Assembly (NCBI GenBank): GCA_964019335.1
Contig: OZ025735.1
Coordinates: 248,001-312,000 of the forward strand
Source of the DNA: Diplonema japonicum
Lineage: Eukaryota; Protista; Euglenozoa: Diplonemea
Reading direction: 5' to 3'
DNA length: 64,000 nucleotides
Shown: one piece after another, positions 1,915 to 62,750 of the stretch
How the letters are laid out: each line of letters starts with the position of its first letter
Numbering within the stretch: position 1 is the first letter of the stretch
The notes under the pieces: generated by a model
Databases searched by the model: none
The model's input: the letters and a program-made list of their open reading frames with translations, nothing else
Told to the model about the DNA's origin: nothing
Translations under genes and position numbers: made by a program

Positions 1915-2181
1915 TTTTGCTGAAGTGATATACTCGGGAAGTTAGAACAAAGGGGAGCGTTTCACAAACAAAACCTTGATTATAAAAAGATTTTTCTTTT
2001 TCTTCATAAGAAACGTTGTAACTAATTCCTCTCCTCCCTCCCTCCCCCCTGAAAAAAACCAAATAAAATATATATATAAAAAAAAAAAACCCACCCCATG
2101 CTCTTTTTTTTTTTGTCTTCTTTTTTTTTATAAAGCCTCACCCACCCACAGTATCTAAAAAAAAAAAAAAAAAAAAAAAAA

Positions 2182-11376: not shown

Positions 11377-11401
11377 TTTTTTTGGGGTTTTTTTTTTTTT
11401 T

Positions 11402-20961: not shown

Positions 20962-21007
<46 letters not shown>

Positions 21008-21624: not shown

Positions 21625-21718
21625 TTATGTATTGCGTCAGGGTCCGACGGGCTGTACTCTCGGATCTGATCGATGAAATCCTCCACTTCCTGCTCCGTGA
21701 GTGCGTCAGGGCTGGTGG
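21625..21718 (-). pseudogene. 94-bp inverted copy of 6571-6664 (acceptor plus start of exon 3 of the RRM-CID gene)
   Basis: Reverse complement matches ccaccagccctgacgca...gacgcaatacataa. The ORF track gives the same peptide EDFIDQIREYSPSDPDAIHK at both sites. Confidence 0.92.
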
Positions 21719-32809: not shown

Positions 32810-32947
32810 AACATATTCCCCCACCCCCCCCACCCCACCCCACCTGGAAAAAAAAAAAAAAAAAAAAAAAAAAACATAAGTTTTAAAAAGGAGGGGAGGG
32901 GAGGGGAGGAAACATAATTTCTTTTTTCTCTCTCTTTTCCAAAAAGA

Positions 32948-38214: not shown

Positions 38215-41200
38215 ATGCCTAGATATTTCACCTCTGCCGGCAGAGGTCTGGCGAGGCTGCTGTGCCTCGTTGTAGGGTTTGCAGGGATGTGCAGCAGCCA
38301 CACGTTGTCGTTCGGGGACTACAGCTACAAGGTGAGCGGATCGCCTGCTGGGTTCCAGGTGTGGACGACTGCCCCGTCGCACAAGATCACGGTGGACCAC
38401 GCACTCCCGAGCGGGGAAAAGGGGTCGCTGTTCCTGAGTGCTGCGCGGCACGAGTTCGAGCCGCTCCAGGTGATCATCCAAGGGACGACGGCGGGGAGCT
38501 GCGCTGTGGAGCTGGAGATGGGGACGGTGGAGAAGGTGGGGATGCACAAGGGGGGCTTCGTGGACGGGTTGCTGGACACGCTGACACCGCTGGCTGGGAT
38601 GACGACGACGGGGACAACGACGACGGCGACGCTTGCGGTGGACGGGGGCTCGAAGCAGACGGTCCTGTGGCTGACGGTGTACGTTCCCTACACGGCGACG
38701 GTGAGCGGGATGCAGACGGGGCTCGGGAAGCTCCGGCTGACGCCACCAGGGAGCTCGACCCCTTTCGAGATCCCGATCGACATGTACGTGTACAACTTCC
38801 AACTCTCGGCGGAGCTGAACTACGTGAACCACATGACCCTCGGGCTGACGGGGACGGTCCACTCGGACGAGGACGTGGCGAAGCAGATCCTGTTCGACCA
38901 CCGGATGACACCGAAGGGCGGGGCGACCTGGCCGAGCGGCTTCAACTACCAGGTGGCGTGGGAGACCAACAGCAACCCTGACAAGTGCAGCAAGTTCTAC
39001 GACGAGCCGAACGAGAGCCCACCATACTCGCTGCACCACCTTGCCCCGAAGTATGTGAAGGGGGAAGGGTGGAACTGCGCGGGCTTCCCAATCCACATGG
39101 CGGTGCAGTTTGTGAACAACAACACCCCGCGCCCGACGAGCTTCTGTGGGGAGAGCGTCGGGTCGGACCCGAAGGGGACCCCTGCCTACAACGCCGCTTG
39201 GGGAAAGTACATCGGGGAGCTTGGGAAGTACGTGAAGGACAACGGCTACGGAGACAAGGTCTTCTACTACACGATGAACGAGCCTCAGGATGCGGCGGAT
39301 GACGACACGGCGGTCGCCCTGTGCGAGCTCTCCCGAAGCGTTGCCCCCGATCTCATGATCTGCGTGAGCGAGGAACCCAAACCCGAGATTGCAGAGAGGT
39401 GCGCCTACGACATCTGGGCCTCTGCCCTTCGCGAGTACAACCAAACCTACGCCTGGAAGAGGCAGGAGCAAGGGATCCCGGGTGAGCGGGTCTGGCTCTA
39501 CTCCCTCCCTCAGGACCCGGACCCGTACCCGAACCCCTCCCAAACGGACAGGCAAGGGATGCACTCTCGTATCTGGGGCTTCCTGTCTTGGTCCCTTCGC
39601 ACCCAGGGTTACTGGTACTACGACGCGGGGACCTGGTTCAACAACAAGAACCCCACTGTGAGGCTTGAACTCTTCAGGGAGGCTTGGGAGGATTACGAGT
39701 ATGCTGCGTTAACAATAATTTGGATCATCTCCATTTTTCACTTCTTTTTAAAGGTACCTGTGGCTTGCAAACGGGAAGAAGCAACCGAAGCCCTGCACGA
39801 TGACAGCGGCTGACGTCCCTGCCTTCAGCGTGGCGAAAGGGCTGACGGACTGGACGACGAACGACGACGCGCTGATGAGCCTGCGACACCAACTGGGGCT
39901 GTACCTGGAAGGGTCCATCGCCTCCCCTCCTTCCCTGGTGGTGCCTCCTTCCCCTCCCCCCGCCCCCGTGTACATCAACTTCCAAGGGAGTTCCCCGAGT
40001 GCGGACCCCCTCGTGGTTGGGGGGAACACTTACGTGAAGATGGGGTGGGATGCCTACGACCCCGGGACGGGGATCGGCTGGGAGGGGCAGAACATCGGGA
40101 CATCCATCGTGAAAGACGGGTACCAGGACACAGGGAGCAAGGACGAGCTGTGGTACTCGTACCTGTTCGACGACTACGGGAGGGACAACGTGTTCAAGTA
40201 CCCGCTGAACCCGGGGACCTACGAGATCACTGTCGCGGTGGGGCGTCCTGGGAAGACCTACAACGACAAGTACAACGTGGTGGTGAACGGGGTGAAGGTG
40301 ATCGACAACTACCACTCGAAGGGGACAGGGGTGGACCAAACCCAGGCCTCCATCGTGATGGAAATCTCCAGCGGTCTCAGTGTTGTGTGGGGTGGGAAGG
40401 ACGACGGTGGGAGCTACGCCTACACCTTCATCGCCTGGATGACAGCGGTCCCTTCCAGTGCACCTGCAGGTCCTGACAACATGGTGGAGCTTGAGTGCCC
40501 GAAGCTCAACATCCCTGTTGTGGATGAGAGAACCTCCGCACCCTCTTGCAGGCCTTGCACCGTTGATCCTCCTGTTTGCAACCCGACGACTGCACCTGAT
40601 ACGAGCGCACCGGACACGAATACACCCGACACTGCTGCTCCTGATACCACTGCACCAGTAACCAGTGCTCCTGATACGAATGCACCTGTTACCAATGCAC
40701 CCGACACTGGTGCTCCTGATACCAATGCACCTATGACGAATGCACCCGACACAAGTGCTCCTGATACCAACCCACCAGACACCAATGCACCTATGACAAG
40801 TGCACCCGACACCAGTGCTCCTGATACCAATGCACCAGACACCAATGCACCTATGACGAATGCACCCGACACAAGTGCCCCTGACACCAATGCACCTGAC
40901 ACCAATGCACCCATCACAAATGCACCCGACACCAGTGCCCCCAATACTAATGCACCTGTTACGAATGCACCTCTTTCCAATGCACCCGACACTGGAGCTC
41001 CTGATACCAATGCACCAGACACCAATGCACCTATCACGAATGCACCCGACACAAGTGCCCCTGATACCAGTGCTCCTGATACCAATGCACCAGTAACTAG
41101 TGTTCCTGATACCAGCGCACCAGACACTAATGCACCCGACACCAGTGCTCCTGATACCAATGCACCTGCCACGAATGCACCTGATACCAGTGCTCCTGAT

Positions 41201-42715
41201 ACGAATGCACCAGACACCAATGCACCTATGACGAATGTTCCAGACACTGGTGCTCCTAATACCAATGCACCTGTCACCAACGCACCCGACACCAGTGCCC
41301 CCAATACTAATGCACCTGTTACGAATGCACCTCTTTCCAATGCACCCGACACTGGAGCTCCTGATACCAATGCCCCTGACACCAATGCACCCGACACAAG
41401 TGCCCCTGACACCAACGCACCCGACACCAATGCACCTGATACCGGTGCCCCTGCCACCAATCCTCCGGCGACACTGACCCCCGGGAAGACGTTGGCCCCC
41501 AACACGAACGCCCCCGACACTGCGATTCCCACCACAGCACCGGCCACCGGAGCTCCAGCGACCATGCCACCGAACACGAATGCTCCCGCCACAGACGCAC
41601 CGGCGACACTGACCCCTGGGAAGACCATATCCCCCGACACGAATGCTCCCGACACCGCTGTTCCAACGATGGCCCCGGCCACCGGTGCCCCAGCGACTCT
41701 ACCTCCGAACACGAATGCTCCCGCCACAGACGCACCGGCGACCCTGGCCCCTGGGAAGACTTGGGCTCCCGACACGAACGCCCCCGACACTGCGATTCCC
41801 ACCACGGCACCGGCCACCGGAGCTCCAGCGACCATGCCACCAAACACAAATGCTCCCGCCACAAACGCACCGGCGACACTGACCCCTGGGAAGACCTGGG
41901 CCCCCGACACGAATGCCCCCGACACCGCTGTTCCAACGACAGCACCCGAGACCACAGCTCCGGCAACGCTTGCCCCTGGGAAGACTTGGGCTCCTGGGAC
42001 AGAAGCTCCGGCAACAGCTGGGCCGACGACCGCCCCCGCCACAGACGCTCCGACGACGCTCACCCCTGGGAAGACTTGGGCTCCCGACACGACTGCTCCC
42101 GACACCTCTGTCCCAATAACGCTCACCCCTGGGAAGACCTGGGCTCCCGACACGACTGCACCTGACACCCCTGTCCCGGTGACGCTCACACCCGGTAAGA
42201 CCTGGGCTCCCGACACATCAGCACCCAACACAAAGGCACCTGCGACCCTCGCACCCGGGGACACGTGGGCACCTGCAACAAGGGCTCCTGAAACAGGTGT
42301 ACCTGCAACTCTGGTCCCTGGGACTACCTGGGCCCCGGACACGGCGGCACCCAAGACAGAGATCCCTGCGACGCTGGTACCGGGGACGACGTGGGCACCG
42401 AGCACGGAGACCCCAACGACGCGGGCACCCCTCGGGGACAAGGAGAGCTATGCACCCGACACACCAGAACCTGGGGCACCGTTCTTGGGGACAGGGGAGG
42501 ACTCCCCAAGAGACTCTCCGAGTGACAGTGGGGACAGTGGCGGTTTTAAGTGGTGGTACATTCTGCTTATCTTGCTGGGCGTTGGCGGTGTCTGTGGGAT
42601 CATTGCCGCCATCGCCATCAGAAAGAGGCAGTCGGAACAGCTCTACATCAACGACATGCTCGATGCGCTGGAGGAGAAGGAGATGATATCCGAGCTGAGA
42701 GGCGGCTCGATGTAA
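38215..42715 (+). CDS. Type I membrane DUF4091/GH123-like glycoside hydrolase, copy A (1481 aa, long stalk); intron 39699-39753
   Basis: Signal peptide; SAARHEFEPLQV; YYTMNEPQ; YPN...SRIWGFLSW...GYWYY; spliced TVRLELFREAWEDYEYLWL (DUF4091-type motif); beta-sandwich (YINFQ...PGTYEITVAVG); ~650-aa Thr/Pro stalk; TM WWYILLILLGVGGVCGIIAAIAI; short tail. Confidence 0.82.
40585..42470 (+). repeat. Coding minisatellite: 15-bp units (PDTNA/PDTSA/PVTNA) grading into longer TLxPGxTWAP-containing units
   Basis: Directly visible tandem repeats such as gcacccgacaccaat and accctgggaagacctgggc variants. Confidence 0.95.
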
Positions 42716-43514
42716 GCCAGAGTGGGAGCGCGAGAGTGCGTACCGCAAGATGAATATGCTGGACACGGAGGAGAGGGAATGAGGCTCCTGTGGAGTTCCT
42801 CAAACTTTGAGAAATGTTTCTTTTATGTGGAATGTCCCCCTTTCTTCCTCTTATTGTTCTTACCAAAAGCCCCCCAATGGTGCTCGCTTTTGGTTAAGTT
42901 CATATTTCTTCTTCTTTTTTTTTTTGTATTTATTTCCCCCTGACTAATCTAATCTTTTTTACCCCCCCCCCCCCCAAGAAAGGAAATAGGAAAAAGTAAG
43001 AAAAAGGGGAAGCATCTTAAGTTTTCATCCTTGATTACATACCTCCCGTTATTGCTTTGAACAAGAAACAAAAACACAAAACCAAAAAAAAAGCTTTATT
43101 ACTAATCGTAAATTATGTTCAGCTGAAACCTTTCTGCAGGATAAACCCCGATTTTGCTTGTTTTCTTTTGTCAGGGAAACGACACACCTCCCCTTAAGCT
43201 TCTACCTAGCTGCCCAGGCACAATCAGACCTTTCAAAACAGGTAACATGGAAAAAGAGTATGGAGGTGGCATTAGAAGCTCACTCCTATGTGTCGTTTGA
43301 GAAACCCCCCCCCCCCCCCCCCCCCCTGTACTTATTGTCGACTGTGGTGGTACTGAGCGCTTGTGTCCCTCCTTTAAGGCCACCTGAGCGGTGGCAATCG
43401 TCGGACACTTTAAGATAACACGGCGGAGGAGTGCAGCGATATCTTCGTACCACTCTTCTGTTGCTGTTCCAGGTAACACCCCTGCTGGTTGGAACAATAA
43501 GTCGTCGGTGGAAT

Positions 43515-43550
<36 letters not shown>

Positions 43551-43551
<1 letters not shown>

Positions 43552-43653
43552 TACCACCGCAGTAGGAACCCGCCAGAGCCCCCAGAACGGGGACAACGGG
43601 GACTAAGAACAGCGCGGCCGGTGAGCGCAAAAACGCATACCTTAAAAGAATAG
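43551..43653. repeat. Short T-run-flanked dispersed repeat, copy 2 (longer)
   Basis: Last 65 bp match 1850-1914; bounded by long T-runs; diverged relative at 58198-58238. Confidence 0.88.
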
Positions 43654-45005
43654 TTTTTTTTTTTTTTTTGAGGTTTTTATGACGCTGAAATCTGCCTGAC
43701 ATCTAGACCCTCTTCTTTTTTTTTTTTTTTCTATACTCTCACATTGGCGATGGCCGTGGTCGTTGCATAGCACCAATAAAAAAGTATTGGTTGGTTCGGG
43801 TTTTTTTAAAAAAAAGAAAATTAAAGCCCCCCCTCCCTCCCTTCCTCCCTTTATATTTTTCTAGTATCTCTTGTCCAACTTTTGCTGCCTTAAATGCGCA
43901 GTGGCACCACACCTATTTGTGAACTTCAACTTCTTTTTTTGTTACACACTGGAAGGAAAAGAGGAAAAAAAAAGGGGGGGTAAAATCGGCTTATTCATTC
44001 TTTTTCGTTCGCGCCGCATAACAACTTTGACTTGTGCAAGGTTACTCTACCTTCGACAACGCAAAGTAGCTTCCCCTCCTCTATAGTAAGTGCGTTCTCC
44101 CCTATTCCCCCCCTCCCCCCTTTTCCTTATTTTTTTGATCCCCGTCCCACGTCCTTCTTGTGTTTGACCTGTGTTTAAAGTGTCCGAAAGGTATAAAGGA
44201 GAAGGTCTGACGGTTTGTGTAAATCCGTTTCCTCTAATCTTTTTTTTTTTCTTTTTAAAAAGAGGGGGTGCAGGTTGCTTTACGTCACAATCCGTAGTTT
44301 TCACCACAAAACAAACAAAAAAAAGGTCAACCTTCCAACCTTTCACAAGGTGACCGGAGGAGATAGGCTGTGCCCCCCTCCCGTTCTAAGTGGGGTTCTG
44401 AGGACACAAGTTGATTATTGCAGTACGTCTTTTCCTTATTTTTCTTCATGTATTTTTTTTTTTTCTTTTTACAAAAAAGAAAAGAAAGACGACGAAAAAG
44501 AAAATTGAAATTGAGTGTTCCTCAAAAAAGAAAAAGAAAAAGAAAAAAAAAAAGAAAAAAAAAAGAAAAAGAAAAGAAAAGAAATGAATAGAAGGAAAAG
44601 GAGAGTGGAGGAGTGCGCTGACTTCATTCAGCGCCGACTTTCATTAGTCTAAACAACCACATTCTCCCGAAAGGTTTTTGACATGGGATTTTTTTTTCTT
44701 CTCTTTTTCTTGAGGCTCCTTTATTTTAGCAGGGATCAGTGTCGGGCTACGACAACACACGTGGTCCTTGCTTGGAGATCTACCCCTTCTAAACAGTGAT
44801 TTGTAGCCAAATGGTACTTAATGGTTCACCTGAGATATTGTCCCAAATCTTTTGTAGTTTACCGTAGATTTAGCGTGGGGGGGGGGGGGGGGGGGAATCG
44901 CTTTTTTTTTTCTCCCTCTTTTTCTTTTTTTTTTTTTTTTTTTTTTGCCTGATTAACTTGTGGTGCTGTTCCATTAACATATCTAGCTTTTCATCCCTTT
45001 TACCG

Positions 45006-46497
45006 TTTTTTTTTTCGGGGATTTTTCTGCTCCAAATTTCCCAAATAATTCCCGACCCCTTTCTTTTTTTTGGGGGGGGGACCGGGGGGTGAGGGGGTCA
45101 CGTGGTTGTCGTGCAACGGGCTTTTCTCAGTCACGCCTGTGCAGGGTACTAGCCGACCTAACCCATGTATACACCCCTTTTTTGACCAAAAACTCGATTT
45201 CCGCCTGGTTTTGGGCACTTTTTGGGCACTTACGAGCAATTCTTTTGCATTTTGAACAGGGACCACGGGGGTTAGCAGCTTGGGGTTATTGTGGGGGACT
45301 ATTTTTCTTAACGCAAGAAGCTAGATGGTTCGTGATGAATGGTTCAAAATTTCATGGAACTACTCAGTTCGAAGGCGCTTTGTGGGTGGCCCGGGTGCTT
45401 CTGCGTTGCCGGAAGGGCACGTGGATTCATGTGTTGACAACTTACCCAGTATTTGCTTCTTTCATGGCCCGCAATGTCAATATTCCATTCTTGAGCAAGA
45501 TCCCAAAGCTGTGCCGTAGCCCACTGACAGTATTGTGAGGCTGCTTACGCAAGTAAGAGTGCTGGCCCGGCGAGCTACGAGGGCAAAAACCCCATTTTCT
45601 TCTAGAAGATGAGAAATATTATAGCGCGACATAATCAGACTGGAACGGCCGCCCCGGGGCATCCTCTGCTCAACCCGGCGGACGTGGGGCCCTTCTTCGG
45701 AAGGTGCCAGTCGCTTGATCAGTGCCGTCGAATGCGCGCTATATTTTATAAGTACAAATATAACAATCGATTGAAAAGGAAAAGTACGTATTGTGAGGCT
45801 GCTTCTGTGTGGCACCGGCGATTCAGACCTACCACCATTTTGAGGGGTTAGGGGGCTGCGGCAAGCAGCCGAGGCGGGACTGCAGCAGAGCGCCGAATCA
45901 ACGTGGCACTGTGGGTAGGGCAGGCACATGAGAACGGTCATGCAACTGCTCGACACCTTTAGCTGTATGCGGTCTCGCGGCTACCTTCCAGGTAGTTCCG
46001 AGGAGACCATACAGCTAAGAGCACTTAGCTAAGTAAGCACTTTGAAGGAGTCGGGCTTTAGACAGTGCAGCACAGAACGTAGTTGCGGGTGTTACAATGG
46101 ACACTGCACCTGACGAGACTCCAGCAGCCTCCAAAGCCCTGCAGCTTCTCAAGCCCCGACAGATTCTCAAGCCTCTCAGACCCCCGCAACCTCCCAGCAA
46201 CCACCTAACGCCAAAACCAGGCGGTCTGTCTGCAACGTTTGTGGGTTCCTCACAGTCTGGGAGAAAAACTGTTTTAAAATTTCCCTTGGAAAAAAAAAGG
46301 GCATGAAAGAAATCTTGGCACGATTTGGCATGTTAAGATTTCCGAAGTGCTCTAAGCCCCGCTCCCTGCTTTCCATGTGGTAGGCGACCCAGCCCAAAGT
46401 ACAACCCAAATAAGTGTATTCCAAATAATTCTTTTTTTTTGGAGCCCTAACACACCCCTCCGCTGCCCAAATAAAGGGATTATTCGGGGGGTCCCTT
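45006..46497. mobile_element. Second copy of the TA-flanked TIR element; left TIR missing
   Basis: Colinear with ~19540-20961 apart from substitutions and indels; right end GGGATTATTCGGGGGGTCCCTT|TA. Confidence 0.88.
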
Positions 46498-46780
46498 TAC
46501 CTCTTTTATTATTTTTTTTTTCTTCCACAAAGAAGTAGGTAGTTGCAGCATGTGTTAATTACAAACCATATGCGCAGAAGCTGGTGATTATAATCAACTC
46601 CCAGATCGAAGGCTTGTCGTGCTGGCACGCTGCCCCCCTTTTTTTCTTATCCGTTTCGCTTTGCGGTGCCTTCCTGTGGGGCACTCTCAAGCTTCGTGTT
46701 TCTTATTTTATACTGCTAGCTCTCTTTATTTAGGGTTCCGGAATGTAAACCTTTTCATGGCATTACAGGAGTTCGACAAG

Positions 46781-48241
46781 ATGACCAGTCGCTCCTCTGC
46801 CGGCAGAGGTCTGGCGAGGCTGCTGTGCCTCGTTGTAGGGTTTGCAGGGATGTGCAGCAGCCACACGTTGTCGTTCGGGGACTACAGCTACAAGGGGAAG
46901 ACTTGGGCTCCCGACACGACTGCTCCCGACACCTCTGTCCCAATAACGCTCACCCCTGGGAAGACCTGGGCTCCCGACACGACTGCACCTGACACCCCTG
47001 TCCCGGTGACGCTCACACCCGGTAAGACCTGGGCTCCCGACACATCAGCACCCAACACAAAGGCACCTGCGACCCTCGCACCCGGGGACACGTGGGCACC
47101 TGCAACAAGGGCTCCTGAAACAGGTGTACCTGCAACTCTGGTCCCTGGGACTACCTGGGCCCCGGACACGGCGGCACCCAAGACAGAGATCCCTGCGACG
47201 CTGGTACCGGGGACGACGTGGGCACCGAGCACGGAGACCCCAACGACGCGGGCACCCCTCGGGGACAAGGAGAGCTATGCACCCGACACACCAGAACCTG
47301 GGGCACCGTTCTTGGGGACAGGGGAGGACTCCCCAAGAGACTCTCCGAGTGACAGTTACAGTGGGGACAGTGGCGGTTTTAAGTGGTGGTACATTCTGCT
47401 CATCTTGCTGGGCGTTGGCGGTGTCTGTGGGATCATTGCCGCCATCGCCATCAGAAAGAGGCAGTCGGAACAGCTCTACACGCCGGTCTTCACCTTGCCG
47501 CCGAACGCCGTGTGGGGAAGACAAGCTGGGCCAGCACCGAATCCAGCTGCAGCACCCCAACCGGGAGTTCAACCTCAACCACAAGCGACCGAGACACAGC
47601 AGCCTGGGCAAACGCAGCAGTCTGGGCAGTCGACGCATTTCTACACACCGCAGACGACACACACACCGCAGACGACACACACACCGCAGACGACACCGGT
47701 GATGCAGGCGCCGGCGTCGGCACCGCCATCTGCGACCTCCGGTACCGCATCCACCGACCAGTTCGTGGAATGGGCGCGAAGGATGGAACTGGAGAACGAA
47801 CAGGAGAGGAAGACCATGGAGGCCCGGCTCGTCGACATGGAGAGGAAGAACGCGTCGACGGCCAACCTGTTGATGTCCGTGCAACAGAACGTGCAAACGC
47901 TGAGCGAGCAGATGGGAGTGATGGCTGCACGTCTGGAGCAGTTGGACGTGATTGCTTCTGCGGTGAACAGCCTCGCACAGGCGGTGGGCTCAATCCAAAA
48001 GGAGATGCAGGCACAGGCGAAAGGCGGGAAGAGGGAGTGCGAGGGCGAGCCGGGCAACAAGAAAGCGGCCTCAAGTGCCCTTGTCCCCACCGCTGGAATA
48101 GGCAGGGAGATGACGCCGATGATCATGCCCAACAGCACCCCCCTTTGTGCCGCGGCAGCTGGCGGGACACCTGTGCAGCAGCAGCTAACCCCGATGGTCG
48201 CCCCCCTGGCTGTCCAGGACATCGACACCGAGTTCAATTGA
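46781..48241 (+). CDS. Chimeric headless paralog: signal peptide + distal stalk + TM fused in frame to a LINE ORF1 C-terminus (alternative ATG 46757)
   Basis: Matches the copy B 5' end up to ...GDYSYK (46894), jumps to the GKTWAP stalk/TM, then at 47481 leaves the gene family and continues as a Gln/Thr-rich coiled-coil ORF. No stop until 48239-48241. Confidence 0.6.
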   Translation: MTSRSSAGRGLARLLCLVVGFAGMCSSHTLSFGDYSYKGKTWAPDTTAPDTSVPITLTPGKTWAPDTTAPDTPVPVTLTPGKTWAPDTSAPNTKAPATLAPGDTWAPATRAPETGVPATLVPGTTWAPDTAAPKTEIPATLVPGTTWAPSTETPTTRAPLGDKESYAPDTPEPGAPFLGTGEDSPRDSPSDSYSGDSGGFKWWYILLILLGVGGVCGIIAAIAIRKRQSEQLYTPVFTLPPNAVWGRQAGPAPNPAAAPQPGVQPQPQATETQQPGQTQQSGQSTHFYTPQTTHTPQTTHTPQTTPVMQAPASAPPSATSGTASTDQFVEWARRMELENEQERKTMEARLVDMERKNASTANLLMSVQQNVQTLSEQMGVMAARLEQLDVIASAVNSLAQAVGSIQKEMQAQAKGGKRECEGEPGNKKAASSALVPTAGIGREMTPMIMPNSTPLCAAAAGGTPVQQQLTPMVAPLAVQDIDTEFN

Positions 48242-48424
48242 AGTGCGGACTGGGACGTCCGGAGGGACGTCCAGTCGGGTGGCGCCAGGGACCCCGATTC
48301 GCTCATAATCACCACACTCAATGTGGGGTCCCTGAGCAACAAGGTTGACGAGGCCCTGGCTATGAGGAGCGACGTGACATGCCTGCAGGAAGTGAAGCTG
48401 ACGGAGCACGGCCAGGAGATGGTT
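47481..48424 (+). mobile_element. Internal non-LTR retrotransposon fragment: ORF1 3' half, TGA, start of the APE-endonuclease ORF2
   Basis: After TGA 48239-48241 the same frame reads SADWDVRRDVQSGGARDPDSLIITTLNVGSLSNKVDEALAMRSDVTCLQEVKL, i.e. APE motifs I (TLNV) and II (DVxCLQE). Confidence 0.85.
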
Positions 48425-48663
48425 GGGAGAAAAACTGTTTTAAAATTTCCCTTGGAAAAAAAAAGGGCGTGAACGAAATCTTGGCACGATTTGGCATGTT
48501 AAGATTTCCGAAGTGCTCTAAGCCCCGCTCCCTGCTTTCCATGTGGTAGGCGACCCAGCCCAAAGTACAACCCAAATAAGTGTATTCCAAATAATTCTTT
48601 TTTTTTGGAGCCCTAACACACCCCTCCGCTGCCCAAATAAAGGGATTATTCGGGGGGTCCCTT
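48424..48663. mobile_element. Right-terminal fragment of the TA-flanked TIR element (part of a duplication with 2166-bp offset)
   Basis: Nearly identical to 46258-46497. Confidence 0.9.
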
Positions 48664-48946
48664 TACCTCTTTTATTATTTTTTTTTTCTTCCACAAAGAA
48701 GTAGGTAGTTGCAGCATGTGTTAATTACAAACCATATGCGCAGAAGCTGGTGATTATAATCAACTCCCAGATCGAAGGCTTGTCGTGCTGGCACGCTGCC
48801 CCCCTTTTTTTCTTATCCGTTTCGCTTTGCGGTGCCTTCCTGTGGGGCACTCTCAAGCTTCGTGTTTCTTATTTTATACTGCTAGCTCTCTTTATTTAGG
48901 GTTCCGGAATGTAAACCTTTTCATGGCATTACAGGAGTTCGACAAG

Positions 48947-51900
48947 ATGACCAGTCGCTCCTCTGCCGGCAGAGGTCTGGCGAGGCTGCTGTGCCTCGTT
49001 GTAGGGTTTGCAGGGATGTGCAGCAGCCACACGTTGTCGTTCGGGGACTACAGCTACAAGGTGAGCGGATCGCCTGCTGGGTTCCAGGTGTGGACGACTG
49101 CCCCGTCGCACAAGATCACGGTGGACCACGCACTCCCGAGCGGGGAAAAGGGGTCGCTGTTCCTGAGTGCTGCGCGGCACGAGTTCGAGCCGCTCCAGGT
49201 GATCATCCAAGGGACGACGGCGGGGAGCTGCGCTGTGGAGCTGGAGATGGGGACGGTGGAGAAGGTGGGGATGCACAAGGGGGGCTTCGTGGACGGGTTG
49301 CTGGACACGCTGACACCGCTGGCTGGGATGACGACGACGGGGACAACGACGACGGCGACGCTTGCGGTGGACGGGGGCTCGAAGCAGACGGTCCTGTGGC
49401 TGACGGTGTACGTTCCCTACACGGCGACGGTGAGCGGGATGCAGACGGGGCTCGGGAAGCTCCGGCTGACGCCACCAGGGAGCTCGACCCCTTTCGAGAT
49501 CCCGATCGACATGTACGTGTACAACTTCCAACTCTCGGCGGAGCTGAACTACGTGAACCACATGACCCTCGGGCTGACGGGGACGGTCCACTCGGACGAG
49601 GACGTGGCGAAGCAGATCCTGTTCGACCACCGGATGACACCGAAGGGCGGGGCGACCTGGCCGAGCGGCTTCAACTACCAGGTGGCGTGGGAGACCAACA
49701 GCAACCCTGACAAGTGCAGCAAGTTCTACGACGAGCCGAACGAGAGCCCACCATACTCGCTGCACCACCTTGCCCCGAAGTATGTGAAGGGGGAAGGGTG
49801 GAACTGCGCGGGCTTCCCAATCCACATGGCGGTGCAGTTTGTGAACAACAACACCCCGCGCCCGACGAGCTTCTGTGGGGAGAGCGTCGGGTCGGACCCG
49901 AAGGGGACCCCTGCCTACAACGCCGCTTGGGGAAAGTACATCGGGGAGCTTGGGAAGTACGTGAAGGACAACGGCTACGGAGACAAGGTCTTCTACTACA
50001 CGATGAACGAGCCTCAGGATGCGGCGGATGACGACACGGCGGTCGCCCTGTGCGAGCTCTCCCGAAGCGTTGCCCCCGATCTCATGATCTGCGTGAGCGA
50101 GGAACCCAAACCCGAGATTGCAGAGAGGTGCGCCTACGACATCTGGGCCTCTGCCCTTCGCGAGTACAACCAAACCTACGCCTGGAAGAGGCAGGAGCAA
50201 GGGATCCCGGGTGAGCGGGTCTGGCTCTACTCCCTCCCTCAGGACCCGGACCCGTACCCGAACCCCTCCCAAACGGACAGGCAAGGGATGCACTCTCGTA
50301 TCTGGGGCTTCCTGTCTTGGTCCCTTCGCACCCAGGGTTACTGGTACTACGACGCGGGGACCTGGTTCAACAACAAGAACCCCACTGTGAGGCTTGAACT
50401 CTTCAGGGAGGCTTGGGAGGATTACGAGTATGCTGCGTTAACAATAATTTGGATCATCTCCATTTTTCACTTCTTTTTAAAGGTACCTGTGGCTTGCAAA
50501 CGGGAAGAAGCAACCGAAGCCCTGCACGATGACAGCGGCTGACGTCCCTGCCTTCAGCGTGGCGAAAGGGCTGACGGACTGGACGACGAACGACGACGCG
50601 CTGATGAGCCTGCGACACCAACTGGGGCTGTACCTGGAAGGGTCCATCGCCTCCCCTCCTTCCCTGGTGGTGCCTCCTTCCCCTCCCCCCGCCCCCGTGT
50701 ACATCAACTTCCAAGGGAGTTCCCCGAGTGCGGACCCCCTCGTGGTTGGGGGGAACACTTACGTGAAGATGGGGTGGGATGCCTACGACCCCGGGACGGG
50801 GATCGGCTGGGAGGGGCAGAACATCGGGACATCCATCGTGAAAGACGGGTACCAGGACACAGGGAGCAAGGACGAGCTGTGGTACTCGTACCTGTTCGAC
50901 GACTACGGGAGGGACAACGTGTTCAAGTACCCGCTGAACCCGGGGACCTACGAGATCACTGTCGCGGTGGGGCGTCCTGGGAAGACCTACAACGACAAGT
51001 ACAACGTGGTGGTGAACGGGGTGAAGGTGATCGACAACTACCACTCGAAGGGGACAGGGGTGGACCAAACCCAGGCCTCCATCGTGATGGAAATCTCCAG
51101 CGGTCTCAGTGTTGTGTGGGGTGGGAAGGACGACGGTGGGAGCTACGCCTACACCTTCATCGCCTGGATGACAGCGGTCCCTTCCAGTGCACCTGCAGGT
51201 CCTGACAACATGGTGGAGCTTGAGTGCCCGAAGCTCAACATCCCTGTTGTGGATGAGAGAACCTCCGCACCCTCTTGCAGGCCTTGCACCGTTGATCCTC
51301 CTATTTGCAACCCGACGACTGCACCTGATACGAGCGCACCGGACACGAATACACCTGGTACCAGTGCTCCTGATACGAATGCACCAGACACCAATGCACC
51401 TATGACGAATGTTCCAGACACTGGTGCTCCTAATACCAATGCACCTGTCACCAACGCACCCGACACCAGTGCCCCCAATACTAATGCACCTGTTACGAAT
51501 GCACCTCTTTCCAATGCACCCGACACTGGAGCTCCTGATACCAATGCCCCTGACACCAATGCACCCGACACAAGTGCCCCTGACACCAACGCACCCGACA
51601 CCAATGCACCTGATACCGGTGCCCCTGCCACCAATCCTCCGGCGACACTGACCCCCGGGAAGACGTTGGCCCCCAACACGAACGCCCCCGACACTGCGAT
51701 TCCCACCACAGCACCGGCCACCGGAGCTCCAGCGACCATGCCACCGAACACGAATGCTCCCGCCACAGACGCACCGGCGACACTGACCCCTGGGAAGACC
51801 ATATCCCCCGACACGAATGCTCCCGACACCGCTGTTCCAACGATGGCCCCGGCCACCGGTGCCCCAGCGACTCTACCTCCGAACACGAATGCTCCCGCCA

Positions 51901-52889
51901 CAGACGCACCGGCGACCCTGGCCCCTGGGAAGACTTGGGCTCCCGACACGAACGCCCCCGACACTGCGATTCCCACCACGGCACCGGCCACCGGAGCTCC
52001 AGCGACCATGCCACCAAACACAAATGCTCCCGCCACAAACGCACCGGCGACACTGACCCCTGGGAAGACCTGGGCCCCCGACACGAATGCCCCCGACACC
52101 GCTGTTCCAACGACAGCACCCGAGACCACAGCTCCGGCAACGCTTGCCCCTGGGAAGACTTGGGCTCCTGGGACAGAAGCTCCGGCAACAGCTGGGCCGA
52201 CGACCGCCCCCGCCACAGACGCTCCGACGACGCTCACCCCTGGGAAGACTTGGGCTCCCGACACGACTGCTCCCGACACCTCTGTCCCAATAACGCTCAC
52301 CCCTGGGAAGACCTGGGCTCCCGACACGACTGCACCTGACACCCCTGTCCCGGTGACGCTCACACCCGGTAAGACCTGGGCTCCCGACACATCAGCACCC
52401 AACACAAAGGCACCTGCGACCCTCGCACCCGGGGACACGTGGGCACCTGCAACAAGGGCTCCTGAAACAGGTGTACCTGCAACTCTGGTCCCTGGGACTA
52501 CCTGGGCCCCGGACACGGCGGCACCCAAGACAGAGATCCCTGCGACGCTGGTACCGGGGACGACGTGGGCACCGAGCACGGAGACCCCAACGACGCGGGC
52601 ACCCCTCGGGGACAAGGAGAGCTATGCACCCGACACACCAGAACCTGGGGCACCGTTCTTGGGGACAGGGGAGGACTCCCCAAGAGACTCTCCGAGTGAC
52701 AGTGGGGACAGTGGCGGTTTTAAGTGGTGGTACATTCTGCTTATCTTGCTGGGCGTTGGCGGTGTCTGTGGGATCATTGCCGCCATCGCCATCAGAAAGA
52801 GGCAGTCGGAACAGCTCTACATCAACGACATGCTCGATGCGCTGGAGGAGAAGGAGATGATGTCCGAGGAGAGAAACGGCACAATGTGA
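48947..52889 (+). CDS. DUF4091/GH123-like membrane glycoside hydrolase, copy B (1295 aa, medium stalk); intron 50428-50482 (alternative ATG 48923)
   Basis: Same head as copy A; stalk 185 aa shorter; different first and last few codons (…EMMSEERNGTM). Confidence 0.82.
51314..52645 (+). repeat. Coding minisatellite stalk of copy B
   Basis: Same repeats as 40585-42470 but lacking 555 bp of the 15-bp units. Confidence 0.93.
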
Positions 52890-53476
52890 AGCTCCCATGT
52901 GCGGAGTGGAAGAGAATATTTGAAGAACCTTTACTAAACTATCTTTGTACTGTTCATATGAAGGCACCACAGGCCCAACGAAGGCATTCCCTTCGTATTC
53001 CCATTATTCTTCTGTTTTTGTTTTTCGAGGTTAAAACGATGCATTTTGGAGGAAAAAAAAAGAGGGGAGAGAAAAATAATGGTAGAACCGAGCCATTTTA
53101 TTCTTCATCTTTCTTTTTTTTTTTTTTTTTTTAAATGCTGCCCTAATGAAAATTGAGGGAGAAAGAGGGAAGGGAAAAAAAAAAAATATTTTAAAAAAAA
53201 AGAATAAAAGAACAGAGAAAACAAAAAGAGCCCATTGGTGTTATTTATTTTTTTTTTGTCAGGTGGAATACACACCAGCCCGTAAGTGGGCCTTATTTGA
53301 GTATTCTTCTTTTTTTTTGTTAGAAAAACAATTATTGTAAATGAATTGTTATTGCTAAAAAAGAGTCGAGGCAGTTTTTGTTCGGCTTTGCCCTTATACA
53401 GGATACCGCCGACTTTGCACAAAAGCAACAAACTGCCAACAGGCGTCCTGTCACATACCGCAGGTACCCTTAAATG

Positions 53477-53519
<43 letters not shown>

Positions 53520-54637
53520 CAGGGATAAGCACCGACTTTTTTAAAATTTATCTTTTAGCATTAGTAGTCGGAGCCGCCTTTACAAGGAGGCCAACATCCC
53601 CCCCCCTCCCCCACTCATCGCGCTCCCATCTTTTCGGTGAATTCTTTTATTTGCTTGCACAATGCAACTCCTCTCTCTATTCCTTTTATATCCTGCCTTT
53701 TATTTTTCCCACCCCATTTCCGATATACTTTTTGTTCTCTCCCCCCCCCTCATTTTTTATTTACTTGCCATGCGTCTTGATATCGTTCTTATTGTGTGAG
53801 GTGAAAAAAAAAAACTTTATTTAACTTAAAAAAAAAGATCCCCTGTTTCGTACCTGTGTATGATCAAGAATAAAGCCCCTGGAATTCCATTTCTTTTTTC
53901 TTTTCTTTTTCTTTTTTTTTGAACTCAGAACTGCAAATAAAAAAAAAAATAAAAAAAAAAAGAATGAACAGGTGGCTTTCTCTACCAAGTTCGGAATTCT
54001 TCAGAACTATCATACCAGTGCGTAATGGTTTTGCTTCAGGGAGCCGGGCTCTCTCTCCCCGTTAGTATTCTTCCTTGAAGAATGCTTACTTTCTCATTTA
54101 GGAGCACAAGAAAAGAAAAAGAAAAAAAAAGAATTGGAACTTATTTTTGTAAAGAAAACCTATACCCGGTTTTTGGTGTTGCCTCTTCATTTAAAAAAAA
54201 AAAAAAAACAAAAACAAAAAATGCACTTAGAATTATTTCTTGTGACAACACACCAAATAGCCTTTTAGTAGTAGTGAGTTACTTGCGAGGAGGGAAACAA
54301 AAAAAAAAAAAAAAAAAAAAAAACAACTGAGGATACAGGACAGCAACTTATATCGCGTCCCCTCTGTGCCATCTCTCCCTGAATTAAAAGTGCGAATGGT
54401 CAGCCTCTATCCTTTCCCAACCAACCTTCCCCCTTTTTTTTTTATGATGAACAGAAATTCTAGCAACAAATGGGGAGCCACCAACACCCTGCCTTCCCTG
54501 CACGTACACACAATGGATTTCTTCTTTTAACCATTGGTTGATAACCCTGTGCCTTCCTTGGCTTCGGTAAGTATTTTTTTACTAACGAAAAAAAAAAAAA
54601 AAAAGAAGATTTTTTCCTGTAAATGAAGAGAATAGAA

Positions 54638-54674
<37 letters not shown>

Positions 54675-54925
54675 AATGGACCCCTGTCTGCTGTATCCTA
54701 GTCTTAGCCTTTCAGTGCCCCATCGACATAGTTGTGGTGGTGTCCCCCACCCCCCGTGTTTGCTTTCTGACCTCGAACAGAAGAAGAAGTGAACAATAAA
54801 TAAACAAACACTCCGAGGAGGGCACCTTAGTGCCCCTCCCGGTACGGGTTCGTCTAGCTAGCTCTTTTGTTTCTTACCTAAGTCAACATCAGCTGCACTA
54901 CAGGATGGGCTGGGCGTAGTGAAGG

Positions 54926-57726
54926 ATGATGAAGTTAATCTCTTTCCTGTTCTGTGTTGCGCTTTTAGATGTCTGCAGCAGCCACACGTTGTCGTTCGGG
55001 GACTACAGCTACAAGGTGAGCGGATCGCCTGCTGGGTTCCAGGTGTGGACGACTGCCCCGTCGCACAAGATCACGGTGGACCACGCACTCCCGAGCGGGG
55101 AAAAGGGGTCGCTGTTCCTGAGTGCTGCGCGGCACGAGTTCGAGCCGCTCCAGGTGATCATCCAAGGGACGACGGCGGGGAGCTGCGCTGTGGAGCTGGA
55201 GATGGGGACGGTGGAGAAGGTGGGGATGCACAAGGGGGGCTTCGTGGACGGGTTGCTGGACACGCTGACACCGCTGGCTGGGATGACGACGACGGGGACA
55301 ACGACGACGGCGACGCTTGCGGTGGACGGGGGCTCGAAGCAGACGGTCCTGTGGCTGACGGTGTACGTTCCCTACACGGCGACGGTGAGCGGGATGCAGA
55401 CGGGGCTCGGGAAGCTCCGGCTGACGCCACCAGGGAGCTCGACCCCTTTCGAGATCCCGATCGACATGTACGTGTACAACTTCCAACTCTCGGCGGAGCT
55501 GAACTACGTGAACCACATGACCCTCGGGCTGACGGGGACGGTCCACTCGGACGAGGACGTGGCGAAGCAGATCCTGTTCGACCACCGGATGACACCGAAG
55601 GGCGGGGCGACCTGGCCGAGCGGCTTCAACTACCAGGTGGCGTGGGAGACCAACAGCAACCCTGACAAGTGCAGCAAGTTCTACGACGAGCCGAACGAGA
55701 GCCCACCATACTCGCTGCACCACCTTGCCCCGAAGTATGTGAAGGGGGAAGGGTGGAACTGCGCGGGCTTCCCAATCCACATGGCGGTGCAGTTTGTGAA
55801 CAACAACACCCCGCGCCCGACGAGCTTCTGTGGGGAGAGCGTCGGGTCGGACCCGAAGGGGACCCCTGCCTACAACGCCGCTTGGGGAAAGTACATCGGG
55901 GAGCTTGGGAAGTACGTGAAGGACAACGGCTACGGAGACAAGGTCTTCTACTACACGATGAACGAGCCTCAGGATGCGGCGGATGACGACACGGCGGTCG
56001 CCCTGTGCGAGCTCTCCCGAAGCGTTGCCCCCGATCTCATGATCTGCGTGAGCGAGGAACCCAAACCCGAGATTGCAGAGAGGTGCGCCTACGACATCTG
56101 GGCCTCTGCCCTTCGCGAGTACAACCAAACCTACGCCTGGAAGAGGCAGGAGCAAGGGATCCCGGGTGAGCGGGTCTGGCTCTACTCCCTCCCTCAGGAC
56201 CCGGACCCGTACCCGAACCCCTCCCAAACGGACAGGCAAGGGATGCACTCTCGTATCTGGGGCTTCCTGTCTTGGTCCCTTCGCACCCAGGGTTACTGGT
56301 ACTACGACGCGGGGACCTGGTTCAACAACAAGAACCCCACTGTGAGGCTTGAACTCTTCAGGGAGGCTTGGGAGGATTACGAGTATGCTGCGTTAACAAT
56401 AATTTGGATCATCTCCATTTTTCACTTCTTTTTAAAGGTACCTGTGGCTTGCAAACGGGAAGAAGCAACCGAAGCCCTGCACGATGACAGCGGCTGACGT
56501 CCCTGCCTTCAGCGTGGCGAAAGGGCTGACGGACTGGACGACGAACGACGACGCGCTGATGAGCCTGCGACACCAACTGGGGCTGTACCTGGAAGGGTCC
56601 ATCGCCTCCCCTCCTTCCCTGGTGGTGCCTCCTTCCCCTCCCCCCGCCCCCGTGTACATCAACTTCCAAGGGAGTTCCCCGAGTGCGGACCCCCTCGTGG
56701 TTGGGGGGAACACTTACGTGAAGATGGGGTGGGATGCCTACGACCCCGGGACGGGGATCGGCTGGGAGGGGCAGAACATCGGGACATCCATCGTGAAAGA
56801 CGGGTACCAGGACACAGGGAGCAAGGACGAGCTGTGGTACTCGTACCTGTTCGACGACTACGGGAGGGACAACGTGTTCAAGTACCCGCTGAACCCGGGG
56901 ACCTACGAGATCACTGTCGCGGTGGGGCGTCCTGGGAAGACCTACAACGACAAGTACAACGTGGTGGTGAACGGGGTGAAGGTGATCGACAACTACCACT
57001 CGAAGGGGACAGGGGTGGACCAAACCCAGGCCTCCATCGTGATGGAAATCTCCAGCGGTCTCAGTGTTGTGTGGGGTGGGAAGGACGACGGTGGGAGCTA
57101 CGCCTACACCTTCATCGCCTGGATGACAGCGGTCCCTTCCAGTGCACCTGCAGGTCCTGACAACATGGTGGAGCTTGAGTGCCCGAAGCTCAACATCCCT
57201 GTTGTGGATGAGAGGATGAAGGAGCCATCTTGCAGGCCCTGCTTCACAGAGTCGTTCTGTGGGACTAAGGCACCGGAGACGCCCCTGCCCCCTGGGCAGA
57301 CATACGTGCCACCGACGCCTGCCCCTGACACGGCAATCCCTGCTACTCCCTTACCTCCAGGACAAAGCTTTTCACCATCTACAGTATCCCCTGGCACACC
57401 TAGTACTCAAGCTCCGAATATCGTTGCAGATGATGGAAACTCAGTGTCGATCCCGGTGTGGGTTCCGGTGCTGATCATTATTATTGTAATGTATTTTTTT
57501 TTTCTATTTTTTTTTTTTTTTTCGAAAAAAAAACTTTTTATTCACTACACAGGCTGTAAACCTCAGTGTCGCTGCTGCCTGGTTTGCACTGCGCACCAAA
57601 AAGAAGAAAGAGGCAAACAGGCGCAACATGGTGAAAGAACTAGGCAAAGAGCTGATGGAGCAAGACACCCCGCAGCACCCGCAACCTCTGCACCAAGCCA
57701 CTGACGATTATGTCCAAACCCTATAG
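54926..57726 (+). CDS. DUF4091/GH123-like membrane glycoside hydrolase, copy C (892 aa, short stalk); introns 56383-56437, 57486-57552
   Basis: Own signal peptide MMKLISFLFCVALLDVCSS; same head; ~60-aa stalk; spliced TM VWVPVLIIII|AVNLSVAAAWFAL; basic tail RTKKKKE...DDYVQTL*. Confidence 0.82.
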
Positions 57727-62080: not shown

Positions 62081-62750
62081 ACCGAATATTGGAGGGGGGG
62101 GAAAGGCTTTCCTCGCCTTTTATTTTTTTTTGCACCGCGAAATAGCAGTGTTCTGCTTCCCCCGACTTTTCGCACGGTTGCGTGAAAACTGTCTATTTCT
62201 AGTGCACTTTATTTTTTTTTTTCCTTAAAAAAACACTACCAGTCCACTGCTCGTTCTCTTTCTCTCTCTCTCTTTTTTTTTTTTGCAAAAACCCCCTTAC
62301 GATTCATCAAACGAGAGCAACGCAAAAGATAATGGAAAAAGAAAGGACGAAGAAAGAGAAGAACAAAAAAAAAAATCACACAAGCTAGTAGAAGCGGCCC
62401 CCCCCCTCCCTCCCTCTTCCCCCCTTTTTTTTTCCCCTCTTTTTTTTTTTATAATGAAAACAGAAGACCATTATCAACTGGTGGGGTCCATGCGCAAAGA
62501 GAAAAAAAAAGAGGGTTTTTTTTATATTCTTTTTTTCTTTTTTTTTTTTTGCCCCAGAAGGGAGAACGGGGTAGATAAGTAGAGACAAATGGGAACGTTC
62601 CAAAAAAAAAAAAAAACAGGAACCTCCCTTATCTCATCTATCTTTTTTTTTATTATTATTATTATTATTCTTTTTGCAATTCTAAGAAATTCTACCCCCA
62701 GACCAGGGAACCAAGAGAAAAAAAAAAAAGAAAAAAGAAAGAAAAAAAAA

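What the first reader, a model, noticed from the sequence alone, without database searches (positions are those of the whole stretch)
38215..57726. Modular surface-glycosidase locus: one identical GH123-like head displayed on stalks of different lengths
Seen: copies A, B and C share a ~2.24-kb block (38290-40530 = 49019-51259 = 54974-57214) in which I find no differences, including the 55-nt intron. Their stalks are ~650, ~470 and ~60 aa, and a fourth copy has a ~160-aa stalk and no head. Outside the identical block the genes stay homologous but diverged (PSCRPC-x-C linker; tails ISELRGGSM vs MSEERNGTM; distinct signal peptide and TM in C; different UTRs). Inference: these are older paralogs whose enzyme module is homogenised by gene conversion while targeting and regulatory ends and stalk reach stay distinct. 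The cell would then present the same hydrolase at several heights above the membrane.
Basis: partly seen in the sequence, partly recalled or inferred. Interest (0 to 1): 0.82.

Follow-up and report, generated by a model that had tools for sequence, protein, structure and literature searches.

The report
Gene-converted enzyme heads on graded stalks
Three neighbouring genes of the marine protist Diplonema japonicum carry a letter-identical, glycosidase-like head on predicted surface stalks of about 655, 470 and 61 residues, likely kept identical by DNA copying between old gene copies (a known process), and the head belongs to an untested branch of its enzyme family that has asparagine in place of the usual catalytic aspartate.

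Summary
The 2241-nt block is identical in A, B and C. Read contigs from three studies carry it without variants, at about threefold depth in the best DNA run, so an artefact is unlikely.

They match over almost the whole gene and differ by one SNP, a 555-nt stalk indel (one further base change beside it) and the first and last few codons. Only C has a head-limited tract.

Gene conversion is supported: the flanks are homologous but about 60-70% identical, and low-depth contigs of related genotypes differ from the head by about 1.3-1.5%.

The head has a predicted GH123 fold plus a malectin-like module. The family's catalytic Asp-Glu is Asn-Glu in 56 of 57 homologues, so activity is unproven.

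D is a head-deleted copy fused to a multi-copy element ORF, and the fusion appears in transcripts. C transcripts end in a GPI-like signal. Expression of A and simultaneous display at three heights are not shown.

The pattern is known (Siglec-11/16, trypanosome arrays), and this scan noted it in prokaryotes (e1-1332477). The Asn-Glu branch is the new part.

The parts
38215..42715 (+). Gene A, 1481 aa: predicted signal peptide, head, 655-aa Thr/Pro/Ala stalk, TM, tail ending ISELRGGSM; intron 39699-39753
38290..40530 (+). Head block, copy A (predicted GH123-type beta-sandwich and TIM barrel, malectin-like sandwich, start of Cys linker)
39277..39282 (+). Asn-Glu codons at the position of the GH123 catalytic Asp-Glu motif (N346-E347 in C numbering)
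   Evidence: aligned to LADEP of 8K2J; N in 56 of 57 and E in 56 of 57 aligned homologues
39699..39753 (+). 55-nt GT-AG intron, identical in A, B (50428-50482) and C (56383-56437)
   Evidence: in-frame insertion at the same place in unnamed ENA proteins P0055/P0079
40580..42544 (+). Stalk of A; 40627-41184 is the segment absent from B and holds a 92-nt exact internal repeat
45006..46524 (.). Dispersed non-coding repeat E (86% to 19541-20988); its last ~270 nt recur at 48424-48690 and lie at very high depth
46781..48241 (+). Gene D, 486 aa: B-type leader and signal peptide, 3181-nt deletion relative to B (joint at 46895), 161-aa stalk, TM, element-derived tail
   Evidence: deletion joint in run X1 and TM-element joint in spliced run X6; transcript protein P0077 carries the fused tail
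47481..48423 (+). Fragment of a multi-copy element: coiled-coil-like ORF, then the start of a second ORF with a TLNVGSL...LQEVKL motif (recalled as the N-terminus of a LINE endonuclease)
   Evidence: depth 2411-2484 against about 200 in X1; one homologue at E 2.6e-22; no Pfam or PDB hit, so the LINE label is unconfirmed
48947..52889 (+). Gene B, 1295 aa: same head, 470-aa stalk, same TM as A, tail ending MSEERNGTM; intron 50428-50482
   Evidence: P0077 matches B for its first 933 residues
49019..51259 (+). Head block, copy B
   Evidence: run X4 has one contig spanning exactly 49019-51259 with 0 other letters
54926..57726 (+). Gene C: own signal peptide, same head, diverged Cys linker, 61-aa stalk, second intron; 838-aa form ending VLIIIIVML (GPI-like) or predicted 889/892-aa TM-plus-tail forms
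   Evidence: P0078 equals the 838-aa form exactly
54974..57214 (+). Head block, copy C
57491..57566 (+). Second intron of C: donor 57491 with acceptor 57552 (seen in transcript proteins) or 57566 (predicted, keeps the TM-tail frame)

Best explanation
The locus is a tandem row of Diplonema japonicum paralogues encoding predicted surface proteins, in which one letter-identical GH123-fold head sits on stalks of different length, and the identity is likely due to recent non-allelic gene conversion between old copies.

Shown: sequence identity, in-register boundaries, diverged homologous flanks, spliced transcripts with C-, B- and D-type parts.

Inferred history: (1) a gene of likely bacterial origin gained a signal peptide, stalk and anchor early in diplonemids; (2) it duplicated into an A/B type and a C type long ago; (3) conversion now copies the head among all three and nearly the whole ORF between A and B, and stops where signal peptides, repeats or UTRs no longer pair; (4) repeat slippage or unequal exchange set the A/B stalk difference; (5) a B-derived duplicate lost its head and fused to an element ORF (D).

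Inferred function: the head is most likely a retaining exo-facing glycosidase with E347 as acid/base. I put about 50% on substrate-assisted attack on an N-acetylhexosamine with Asn as the helper residue, about 25% on another sugar or an enzyme nucleophile, and about 25% on binding only. The separate leaders and UTRs would allow copy-specific levels.
For: Identity and boundaries. Homologous diverged flanks: A/B tail 20 of 28 nt and A/C linker 18 of 30 nt, each 0 of 300 shuffles; C's linker keeps KEP-C-RPC as in Rhynchopus relatives.

Not an artefact: one variant-free head contig in X1, X4 and X6; depth in X1 is 656 against 200-220 for four single-copy junction contigs and 410 for the two-copy B/D leader.

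Homogenised after a strain split: X13 head pieces differ at 9 of 711 nt and two X14 pieces at 10 of 684 nt, which predicts 28-33 differences per 2241 nt against 0 seen. All 7 listed X13/X14 head differences are synonymous. X13 has a contig bridging head to C linker and an A/B-type TM piece.

Head GC3 is 0.87 and 0.82 against 0.51-0.70 in 15 of 15 other ORFs examined.

Fold: pLDDT 87.7; Z 30.1, rmsd 3.0 over 416 residues to 8K2F; ranks 1-17 are all GH123. Surface CAZymes with C-terminal TM or GPI anchors were found by proteomics in Paradiplonema papillatum (10.1101/2025.07.16.665091, passages).
Against: No long read or contig spans a head with both flanks, so the pairing of 5' ends with tails rests on the window's assembly. 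Transcript assemblies are chimeric (P0053 is B's start on C's tail).

Contigs drop rare variants, depth is not a copy number, and a DNA run may be the window's own source (tool caveats). In X4 the C 5' contig (5.4) does not fit the per-copy depth of about 14-15.

X13 and X14 contigs are at depth 2-7, and 37 difference rows were not shown. A third X14 piece differs at 27 of 209 nt and was left out of the rate; it may be an unconverted paralogue. No head-to-A/B-linker bridge was seen in a relative, so repeated conversion is not proven over one recent sweep.

Rhynchopus paralogue heads are only 71-76% identical to each other.

Asp-to-Asn mutants of characterised GH123 enzymes have little to no activity (PMC11087588, passage). 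A-specific contigs in the spliced run (17.5-18.9) are close to intergenic contigs (11.1-12.6), and 0 of 3 transcript proteins carry A's ends.
Confidence: 0.75

Rival explanations
1. One-off recent events rather than ongoing concerted evolution: B arose by a recent duplication of A, and C captured the head once by a double crossover.
For: Zero differences need only one recent sweep. UTRs show no detectable homology. Repeat E lies upstream of both D and B and could have driven duplication. The 87% X14 piece may be an unconverted head.
Against: A/B tails are homologous but only 20 of 28 nt identical, in register to the stop codon, which a simple recent duplication does not explain. X13 already joins a 98-99% head to the C linker. 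Raised GC3 across the whole head suggests a long history, though expression or donor composition could also cause it.
Confidence: 0.17
2. The stalk series is not adaptive: stalk lengths drift by repeat slippage, and the array serves dosage or stage-specific regulation through different leaders and UTRs, with one copy dominant at a time.
For: A's extra segment contains exact internal repeats of up to 92 nt. Stalk lengths vary widely among diplonemid orthologues. A is not clearly above background in the spliced run. D. japonicum has trophic, sessile and swimming stages (PMC5845003, passages).
Against: C's 61-aa stalk and separate anchor are old and also present in a related genotype. Conversion has not erased them.
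Confidence: 0.45
3. The head is a non-catalytic glycan-binding module (a lectin or adhesin) derived from GH123.
For: The catalytic Asp is Asn. The substrate-contacting Trp of GH123 aligns to Tyr460 (my reading). A malectin-like module follows the barrel. No polysaccharide-utilisation genes were found among 24 ORFs scanned beside three bacterial homologues.
Against: Asn-Glu-Pro is nearly invariant across bacteria and protists (56, 56 and 57 of 57), and so are pocket aromatics and acids (W392 57 of 57, Y420 56 of 57, E/D377 57 of 57), which suggests a selected active site. Asn-assisted catalysis exists in GH85 (recalled, not checked).
Confidence: 0.25
4. The identity is an assembly collapse or polishing artefact.
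For: No listed read or contig spans a whole copy with both flanks.
Against: Separately assembled read contigs give one head with 0 other letters in three studies, branching at the same boundaries, at about threefold depth in X1; junctions unique to A, B, C and D are present.
Confidence: 0.03

Closest known systems
GH123 beta-N-acetylgalactosaminidases, Groups 1-4 (Sumida et al. 2024, PMC11087588; section 11 and passages read; PDB 8K2F, 8K2J)
   Same: Predicted N-terminal beta-sandwich plus (beta/alpha)8 barrel (Z 28-30); Glu of the catalytic pair, the barrel Tyr and the Gly kept.
   Different: Asp of the DE motif is Asn throughout this branch; Trp aligns to Tyr; 11-20% identity; extra malectin-like C-terminal module; stalk and membrane anchor; no activity known.
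[quoted passage not shown]
   Same: Gene conversion keeps the glycan-recognising extracellular part alike while the rest of each paralogue stays distinct.
   Different: Animal lectins with opposite signalling; here an enzyme-fold head, three copies and mucin-like stalks; recurrence across species is shown there but only partly here.
Trypanosoma brucei tandem arrays, including the PGK array (PMC1855330, section 13 and passages read) and TbHK1/TbHK2 (PMC3195984, passages read)
   Same: Euglenozoan tandem paralogues shaped by conversion, with copy-specific ends and UTRs that give different targeting or regulation; closest match to A versus B.
   Different: In that study divergent copies with remodelled flanks usually escape homogenisation, whereas C keeps a fully identical head despite unrelated flanks. 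Those examples are intracellular enzymes.
Plasmodium falciparum DBLMSP/DBLMSP2 (PMC10919680, abstract read)
   Same: Domain-limited non-allelic gene conversion between diverged surface-protein paralogues in a protist.
   Different: There it produces polymorphic shared lineages; here the three heads are fixed and identical in the genotype examined.
Cell-membrane CAZymes of Paradiplonema papillatum (10.1101/2025.07.16.665091, passages read)
   Same: Signal peptide, catalytic domain, then C-terminal TM or GPI anchor, exposed outside the cell.
   Different: Those described are pectin and hemicellulose enzymes; the words 'stalk' and 'glycoside hydrolase' do not occur in the main text.

Membership tests
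GH123 | N-terminal beta-sandwich plus (beta/alpha)8 barrel fold | tested here: met
   Model pLDDT 87.7; VIA Z 30.1 to 8K2F, ranks 1-17 all GH123; profile E 1.6e-21 to 8K2F
GH123 | Pfam GH123_cat (DUF4091) above the curated cut-off | tested here: inconclusive
   Window head 17.4-18.7 bits, below 23.1; 4 of 4 bacterial homologues scanned pass (24.2-29.3 bits)
GH123 | Catalytic Asp-Glu (DE) motif | tested here: not met
   Asn-Glu at the aligned position; N in 56 of 57, D in 0 of 57
GH123 | Conserved barrel Tyr, Gly and Trp (Y392, G427, W431 of NgaLy) | tested here: inconclusive
   By my reading of the 8K2J alignment: Y420 (56 of 57) and G456 (57 of 57) kept, Trp is Tyr460 (56 of 57); no structural superposition of side chains was available
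GH123 | beta-GalNAc hydrolysis by substrate-assisted catalysis | not testable with these tools
   needs an enzyme assay
Concerted evolution by non-allelic gene conversion | Sharp in-register change from identity to divergence inside homologous sequence | tested here: met
Concerted evolution by non-allelic gene conversion | Paralogues closer to each other than to the orthologue of a relative | tested here: met
   0 of 2241 between copies against 9 of 711 (X13) and 10 of 684 (X14); low-depth contigs, one 87% piece left out
Concerted evolution by non-allelic gene conversion | Independent homogenisation in several lineages | tested here: inconclusive
   No relative gave both head-flank junctions; Rhynchopus paralogues not homogenised; P0055/P0079 have identical heads but their arrangement could not be fetched
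GPI-anchored proteins (form of C) | C-terminal omega site, spacer and hydrophobic end without cytoplasmic tail | tested here: inconclusive
   2 of 2 transcript proteins with C's end stop at ...DDGNSVSIPVWVPVLIIIIVML; judged by eye, no predictor run
LINE retrotransposon (source of D's tail) | ORF1 followed by an endonuclease/RT ORF2, multi-copy | tested here: inconclusive
   Multi-copy by depth; endonuclease-like start recognised from recall only; no Pfam, PDB or plasmid hit for the 64-aa piece

The most novel reading that the evidence does not exclude
The locus is a selected display series for an uncharacterised Asn-Glu branch of GH123 with its own mechanism or substrate. Conversion would keep the catalytic head identical while anchor and reach stay distinct: roughly 130-220 nm and 95-160 nm TM stalks if extended, and a 12-20 nm form switchable between GPI-like and TM anchoring by two splice acceptors 14 nt apart. 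A transcribed headless copy with a retroelement-derived cytoplasmic tail would be a newborn chimeric surface protein.
Probability: 0.2. Interest if true: 0.72.

Novelty: new variant of a known kind. Interest (0 to 1): 0.44.

Why it matters
The evolutionary process is known. The locus is still a clean, read-supported case of domain-limited gene conversion in a free-living diplonemid; my literature searches listed no such case. It also points to a testable enzyme question: a branch of GH123, shared by deltaproteobacteria-type bacteria and several protists, that has fixed Asn where every characterised member needs Asp. One recombinant head would show whether this is a new mechanism, a new substrate or a lectin, and would say which glycans these abundant marine protists process at their surface.

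Tried and rejected
No whole genome was held for the window, so other copies could be judged only from contig depth.

Single-sequence PDB searches with either exon gave nothing meaningful: 0 hits, and 2 chance hits at E about 0.7-0.8. Only the profile and fold searches worked.

Homology of 5' flanks and 3' UTRs: 0 of 5 pairs beat 300 shuffles.

My first choice of donor 57486 for C's second intron was dropped. Transcript proteins use 57491, which also fits the published D. japonicum GTATG donor consensus better (PMC12621601, passages).

No contig of the spliced run X6 was laid on C's own stalk and tail; the tool says a hole proves nothing. No run was on record as RNA; X6 is taken as RNA because it alone skips the intron.

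The exact D protein is not in the protein collection, and a homologue search found no headless isoform. D's tail gave only a sub-threshold Atlas lead (0.76).

Bacterial neighbourhoods gave no substrate clue. X12 proved to be the same genotype at low depth, not a sister species.

A rooted test of horizontal transfer was not possible. Diplonemids form one side of a branch (99-100); all eukaryote rows together have support 68, neither shown nor rejected (quick trees only; one search used 25 of the 60 rows).

Literature blanks: 'diplonemid'+'GH123' gave 0 papers; 'GH123'+'asparagine'+'GH85'+'substrate-assisted' gave 0; 'diplonemid'+'gene conversion' gave 16 papers, 10 listed, none on this by title or abstract start. 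Supplements of PMC10161547 were not read and those of 10.64898/2026.01.29.702485 are closed; their HGT or CAZyme tables may list this family.
Full report
Organism. Three EukProt proteins labelled Diplonema japonicum hold the window's head at 100% identity, and one equals gene C's spliced product letter for letter. The window is therefore from D. japonicum or an indistinguishable genotype. No whole genome was held.

The observation. The three 2241-nt blocks have no differences. Stalks are 655, 470, 61 and 161 residues and about 20% each Thr and Pro in A, B and D. The main correction concerns A and B. They are identical from codon 6 of A to the last nine codons, apart from one SNP and a 555-nt in-frame stalk indel with one further base change beside it. 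There are thus two tract sizes: nearly the whole ORF between A and B, and the head alone between A/B and C.

Artefact test. Read contigs were laid on 47490-54970 (4 of 17 listed runs). X1, X4 and X6, from three studies, each give one head contig with no other letters. In X4 it runs from 49019 to 51259, the exact limits of the block, as expected if the assembly graph forks there. In X1 the head has depth 656, four single-copy junction contigs have 200-220, and the leader shared by B and D has 410. X4 fits this (46.5, 13.9, 30.8) except for C's 5' contig (5.4). Junctions unique to A's stalk, B's tail, C's 5' end and D's deletion are present. Limits: contigs drop rare variants, depth is not a copy number, a DNA run may be the window's own source, and no piece spans a head with both flanks.

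Gene conversion. (1) Identity ends abruptly inside homologous, in-frame sequence. The A/B tails share 20 of 28 nt and the A/C linker 18 of 30 nt; no shuffle of 300 reached either score. C's linker keeps the KEP-C-RPC pattern of Rhynchopus relatives, so C is an old paralogue and not a head fused to an unrelated stalk. The boundaries do not coincide with introns. (2) Low-depth contigs of related genotypes in runs X13 and X14 differ from the head at 9 of 711 nt and 10 of 684 nt. All 7 listed differences are synonymous third positions, and 3 are shared by both runs. X13 also has a contig bridging head to C linker and an A/B-type TM piece, so both gene types predate the split. Independent evolution since then would predict 28-33 differences per head pair, and none is seen. 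I left out one X14 piece with 27 differences in 209 nt; it may be an unconverted paralogue or another species. 37 difference rows were not displayed. (3) Head GC3 is 0.87 and 0.82 against 0.51-0.70 in 15 other ORFs of the window, as GC-biased conversion would give; A's TM-tail (0.74) and D's element part (0.73) are also raised, and expression or donor composition are alternatives. Against generality: two Rhynchopus paralogue heads are 71-76% identical to each other and 96-98% identical to their counterparts in unnamed ENA records on different contigs. This fits the view that conversion needs proximity (PMC1855330, section 13). UTRs show no detectable homology.

The head. An alignment of 57 homologues gave a model with pLDDT 87.7. 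Residues 36-543 match GH123 structures (Z 30.1, rmsd 3.0 over 416 residues to 8K2F; ranks 1-17 all GH123). Residues 555-724 match YxiM and malectin-like sandwiches (Z 13-14.5; Atlas 0.91-0.94 to galactose-binding and malectin clusters). The GH123 catalytic DE motif (LADEP in 8K2J) aligns with NEP; Asn occurs in 56 of 57 rows and Asp in none. Sumida et al. report DE in 94% of 734 DUF4091 sequences and little to no activity in Asp-to-Asn mutants (PMC11087588, passages). The head therefore has the family's fold but fails its defining motif. The pocket is strongly conserved (N346, E347, P348, E/D377, W392, Y420, G456, Y460), so I favour an active enzyme, most likely with Asn assisting the acetamido group as in GH85 (recalled, not checked). 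An enzyme nucleophile among E377/E378, or binding only, remain open.

Origin. Apart from diplonemids, the hits are mostly uncultured bacteria at 36-46% identity; those with a taxon name are Nannocystaceae or Deltaproteobacteria. Many show a lipoprotein-like N-terminus by eye and already carry both domains. A few other protists also have the gene. Diplonemid rows form one side of a branch (SH-aLRT 99-100), but the trees are unrooted and quick, so a bacterial origin is likely and not shown. Tandem expansion of transferred genes is described for P. papillatum (PMC10161547, passages; neither 'GH123' nor 'gene conversion' occurs in its main text). Stalk-plus-TM ends also occur on unrelated heads in other eukaryotic proteins, such as expansin-like ones, so a head on a stalk is not unusual in itself.

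Expression. X6 alone skips the 55-nt intron and is taken as RNA. It bridges C's 5' end to the head and D's TM to the element ORF, and has B-tail and B-stalk contigs. A-specific contigs (17.5-18.9) are close to intergenic ones (11.1-12.6). The tool warns that contig depth cannot rank genes. Of the three transcript proteins, one has C's start, two have the B/D start, one has B's stalk allele, and none has A's ends. Two are chimeric, as expected with a shared head. Co-display at three heights is not shown.

Copy C's anchor. Both transcript proteins with C's end use donor 57491 and acceptor 57552, which stops the protein at ...DDGNSVSIPVWVPVLIIIIVML, a GPI-signal-like end by eye. An acceptor 14 nt further on would give a clean TM, a basic stop-transfer and a tail resembling A's. 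The two tail differences listed in X13 are both synonymous in that frame, a weak sign that it is still coding. Alternative anchoring is a hypothesis.

Copy D. D shares B's leader (2 differences in 638 nt), has lost 3181 nt relative to B at a 1-nt overlap, keeps the stalk end and TM, and continues in frame into 253 codons of a multi-copy element. X6 holds a contig identical to D's own version of that piece, whereas the DNA runs show the multi-copy consensus. P0077 carries the fused tail at 97.5% identity. The LINE label rests on a recalled motif only.

Comparison and verdict. Conversion limited to a recognition or catalytic domain with distinct anchors is known from Siglec-11/16 (abstract), DBLMSP/DBLMSP2 (abstract) and trypanosome arrays (sections and passages read). 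The locus is real and well supported but works by a known process. The features that lift it are the untested Asn-Glu branch of GH123, the possible GPI/TM switch in C and the transcribed chimera D. PMC3369871 (passages) and 10.64898/2026.01.29.702485 (passages) added nothing specific. Interest 0.44; new variant of a known kind.

Noticed in passing
window 62583-63695 +: ORF with a TET-associated glycosyltransferase domain (PF20691, E 3.9e-20); may be related to base-modifying glucosyltransferases of euglenozoans (recalled).
   Followed up: no
window 2179-4647 +: GH35 beta-galactosidase with predicted signal peptide and galactose-binding domain, another CAZyme in the window.
   Followed up: no
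window 11363-12517 +: ORF with a Cys/His finger-like motif that looks by eye like the C-terminal part of a retroelement protein; no Pfam hit.
   Followed up: partly
window 19541-20988, 45006-46524, 48424-48690: Dispersed 1.45-kb non-coding repeat; its last ~270 nt lie at very high summed depth in DNA runs and sit upstream of both D and B.
   Followed up: partly
window 6571-6664 and 21625-21718: A 94-nt piece of a coding exon recurs exactly, inverted, 15 kb away; smaller dispersed copies at 8326-8372/19429-19475 and 1850-1918/43589-43657.
   Followed up: no
proteins P0055 and P0079 (unnamed ENA records): Two 1067-aa homologues differing at 2 signal-peptide residues, both listed with a longest contig of 1,539,504 bp; possibly a parallel tandem pair in another diplonemid.
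   Followed up: partly
proteins P0058, P0059, P0080: A long-branch diplonemid paralogue clade that has lost the NE motif (reads TNP), likely non-catalytic.
   Followed up: partly
protein P0061 (unnamed ENA record): The same head fused to DOMON and two desulfoferrodoxin-like domains before the TM, in place of a long stalk.
   Followed up: no
window 32918-35131 +: Potassium-channel-like ion transport protein with N-terminal EF-hands.
   Followed up: no
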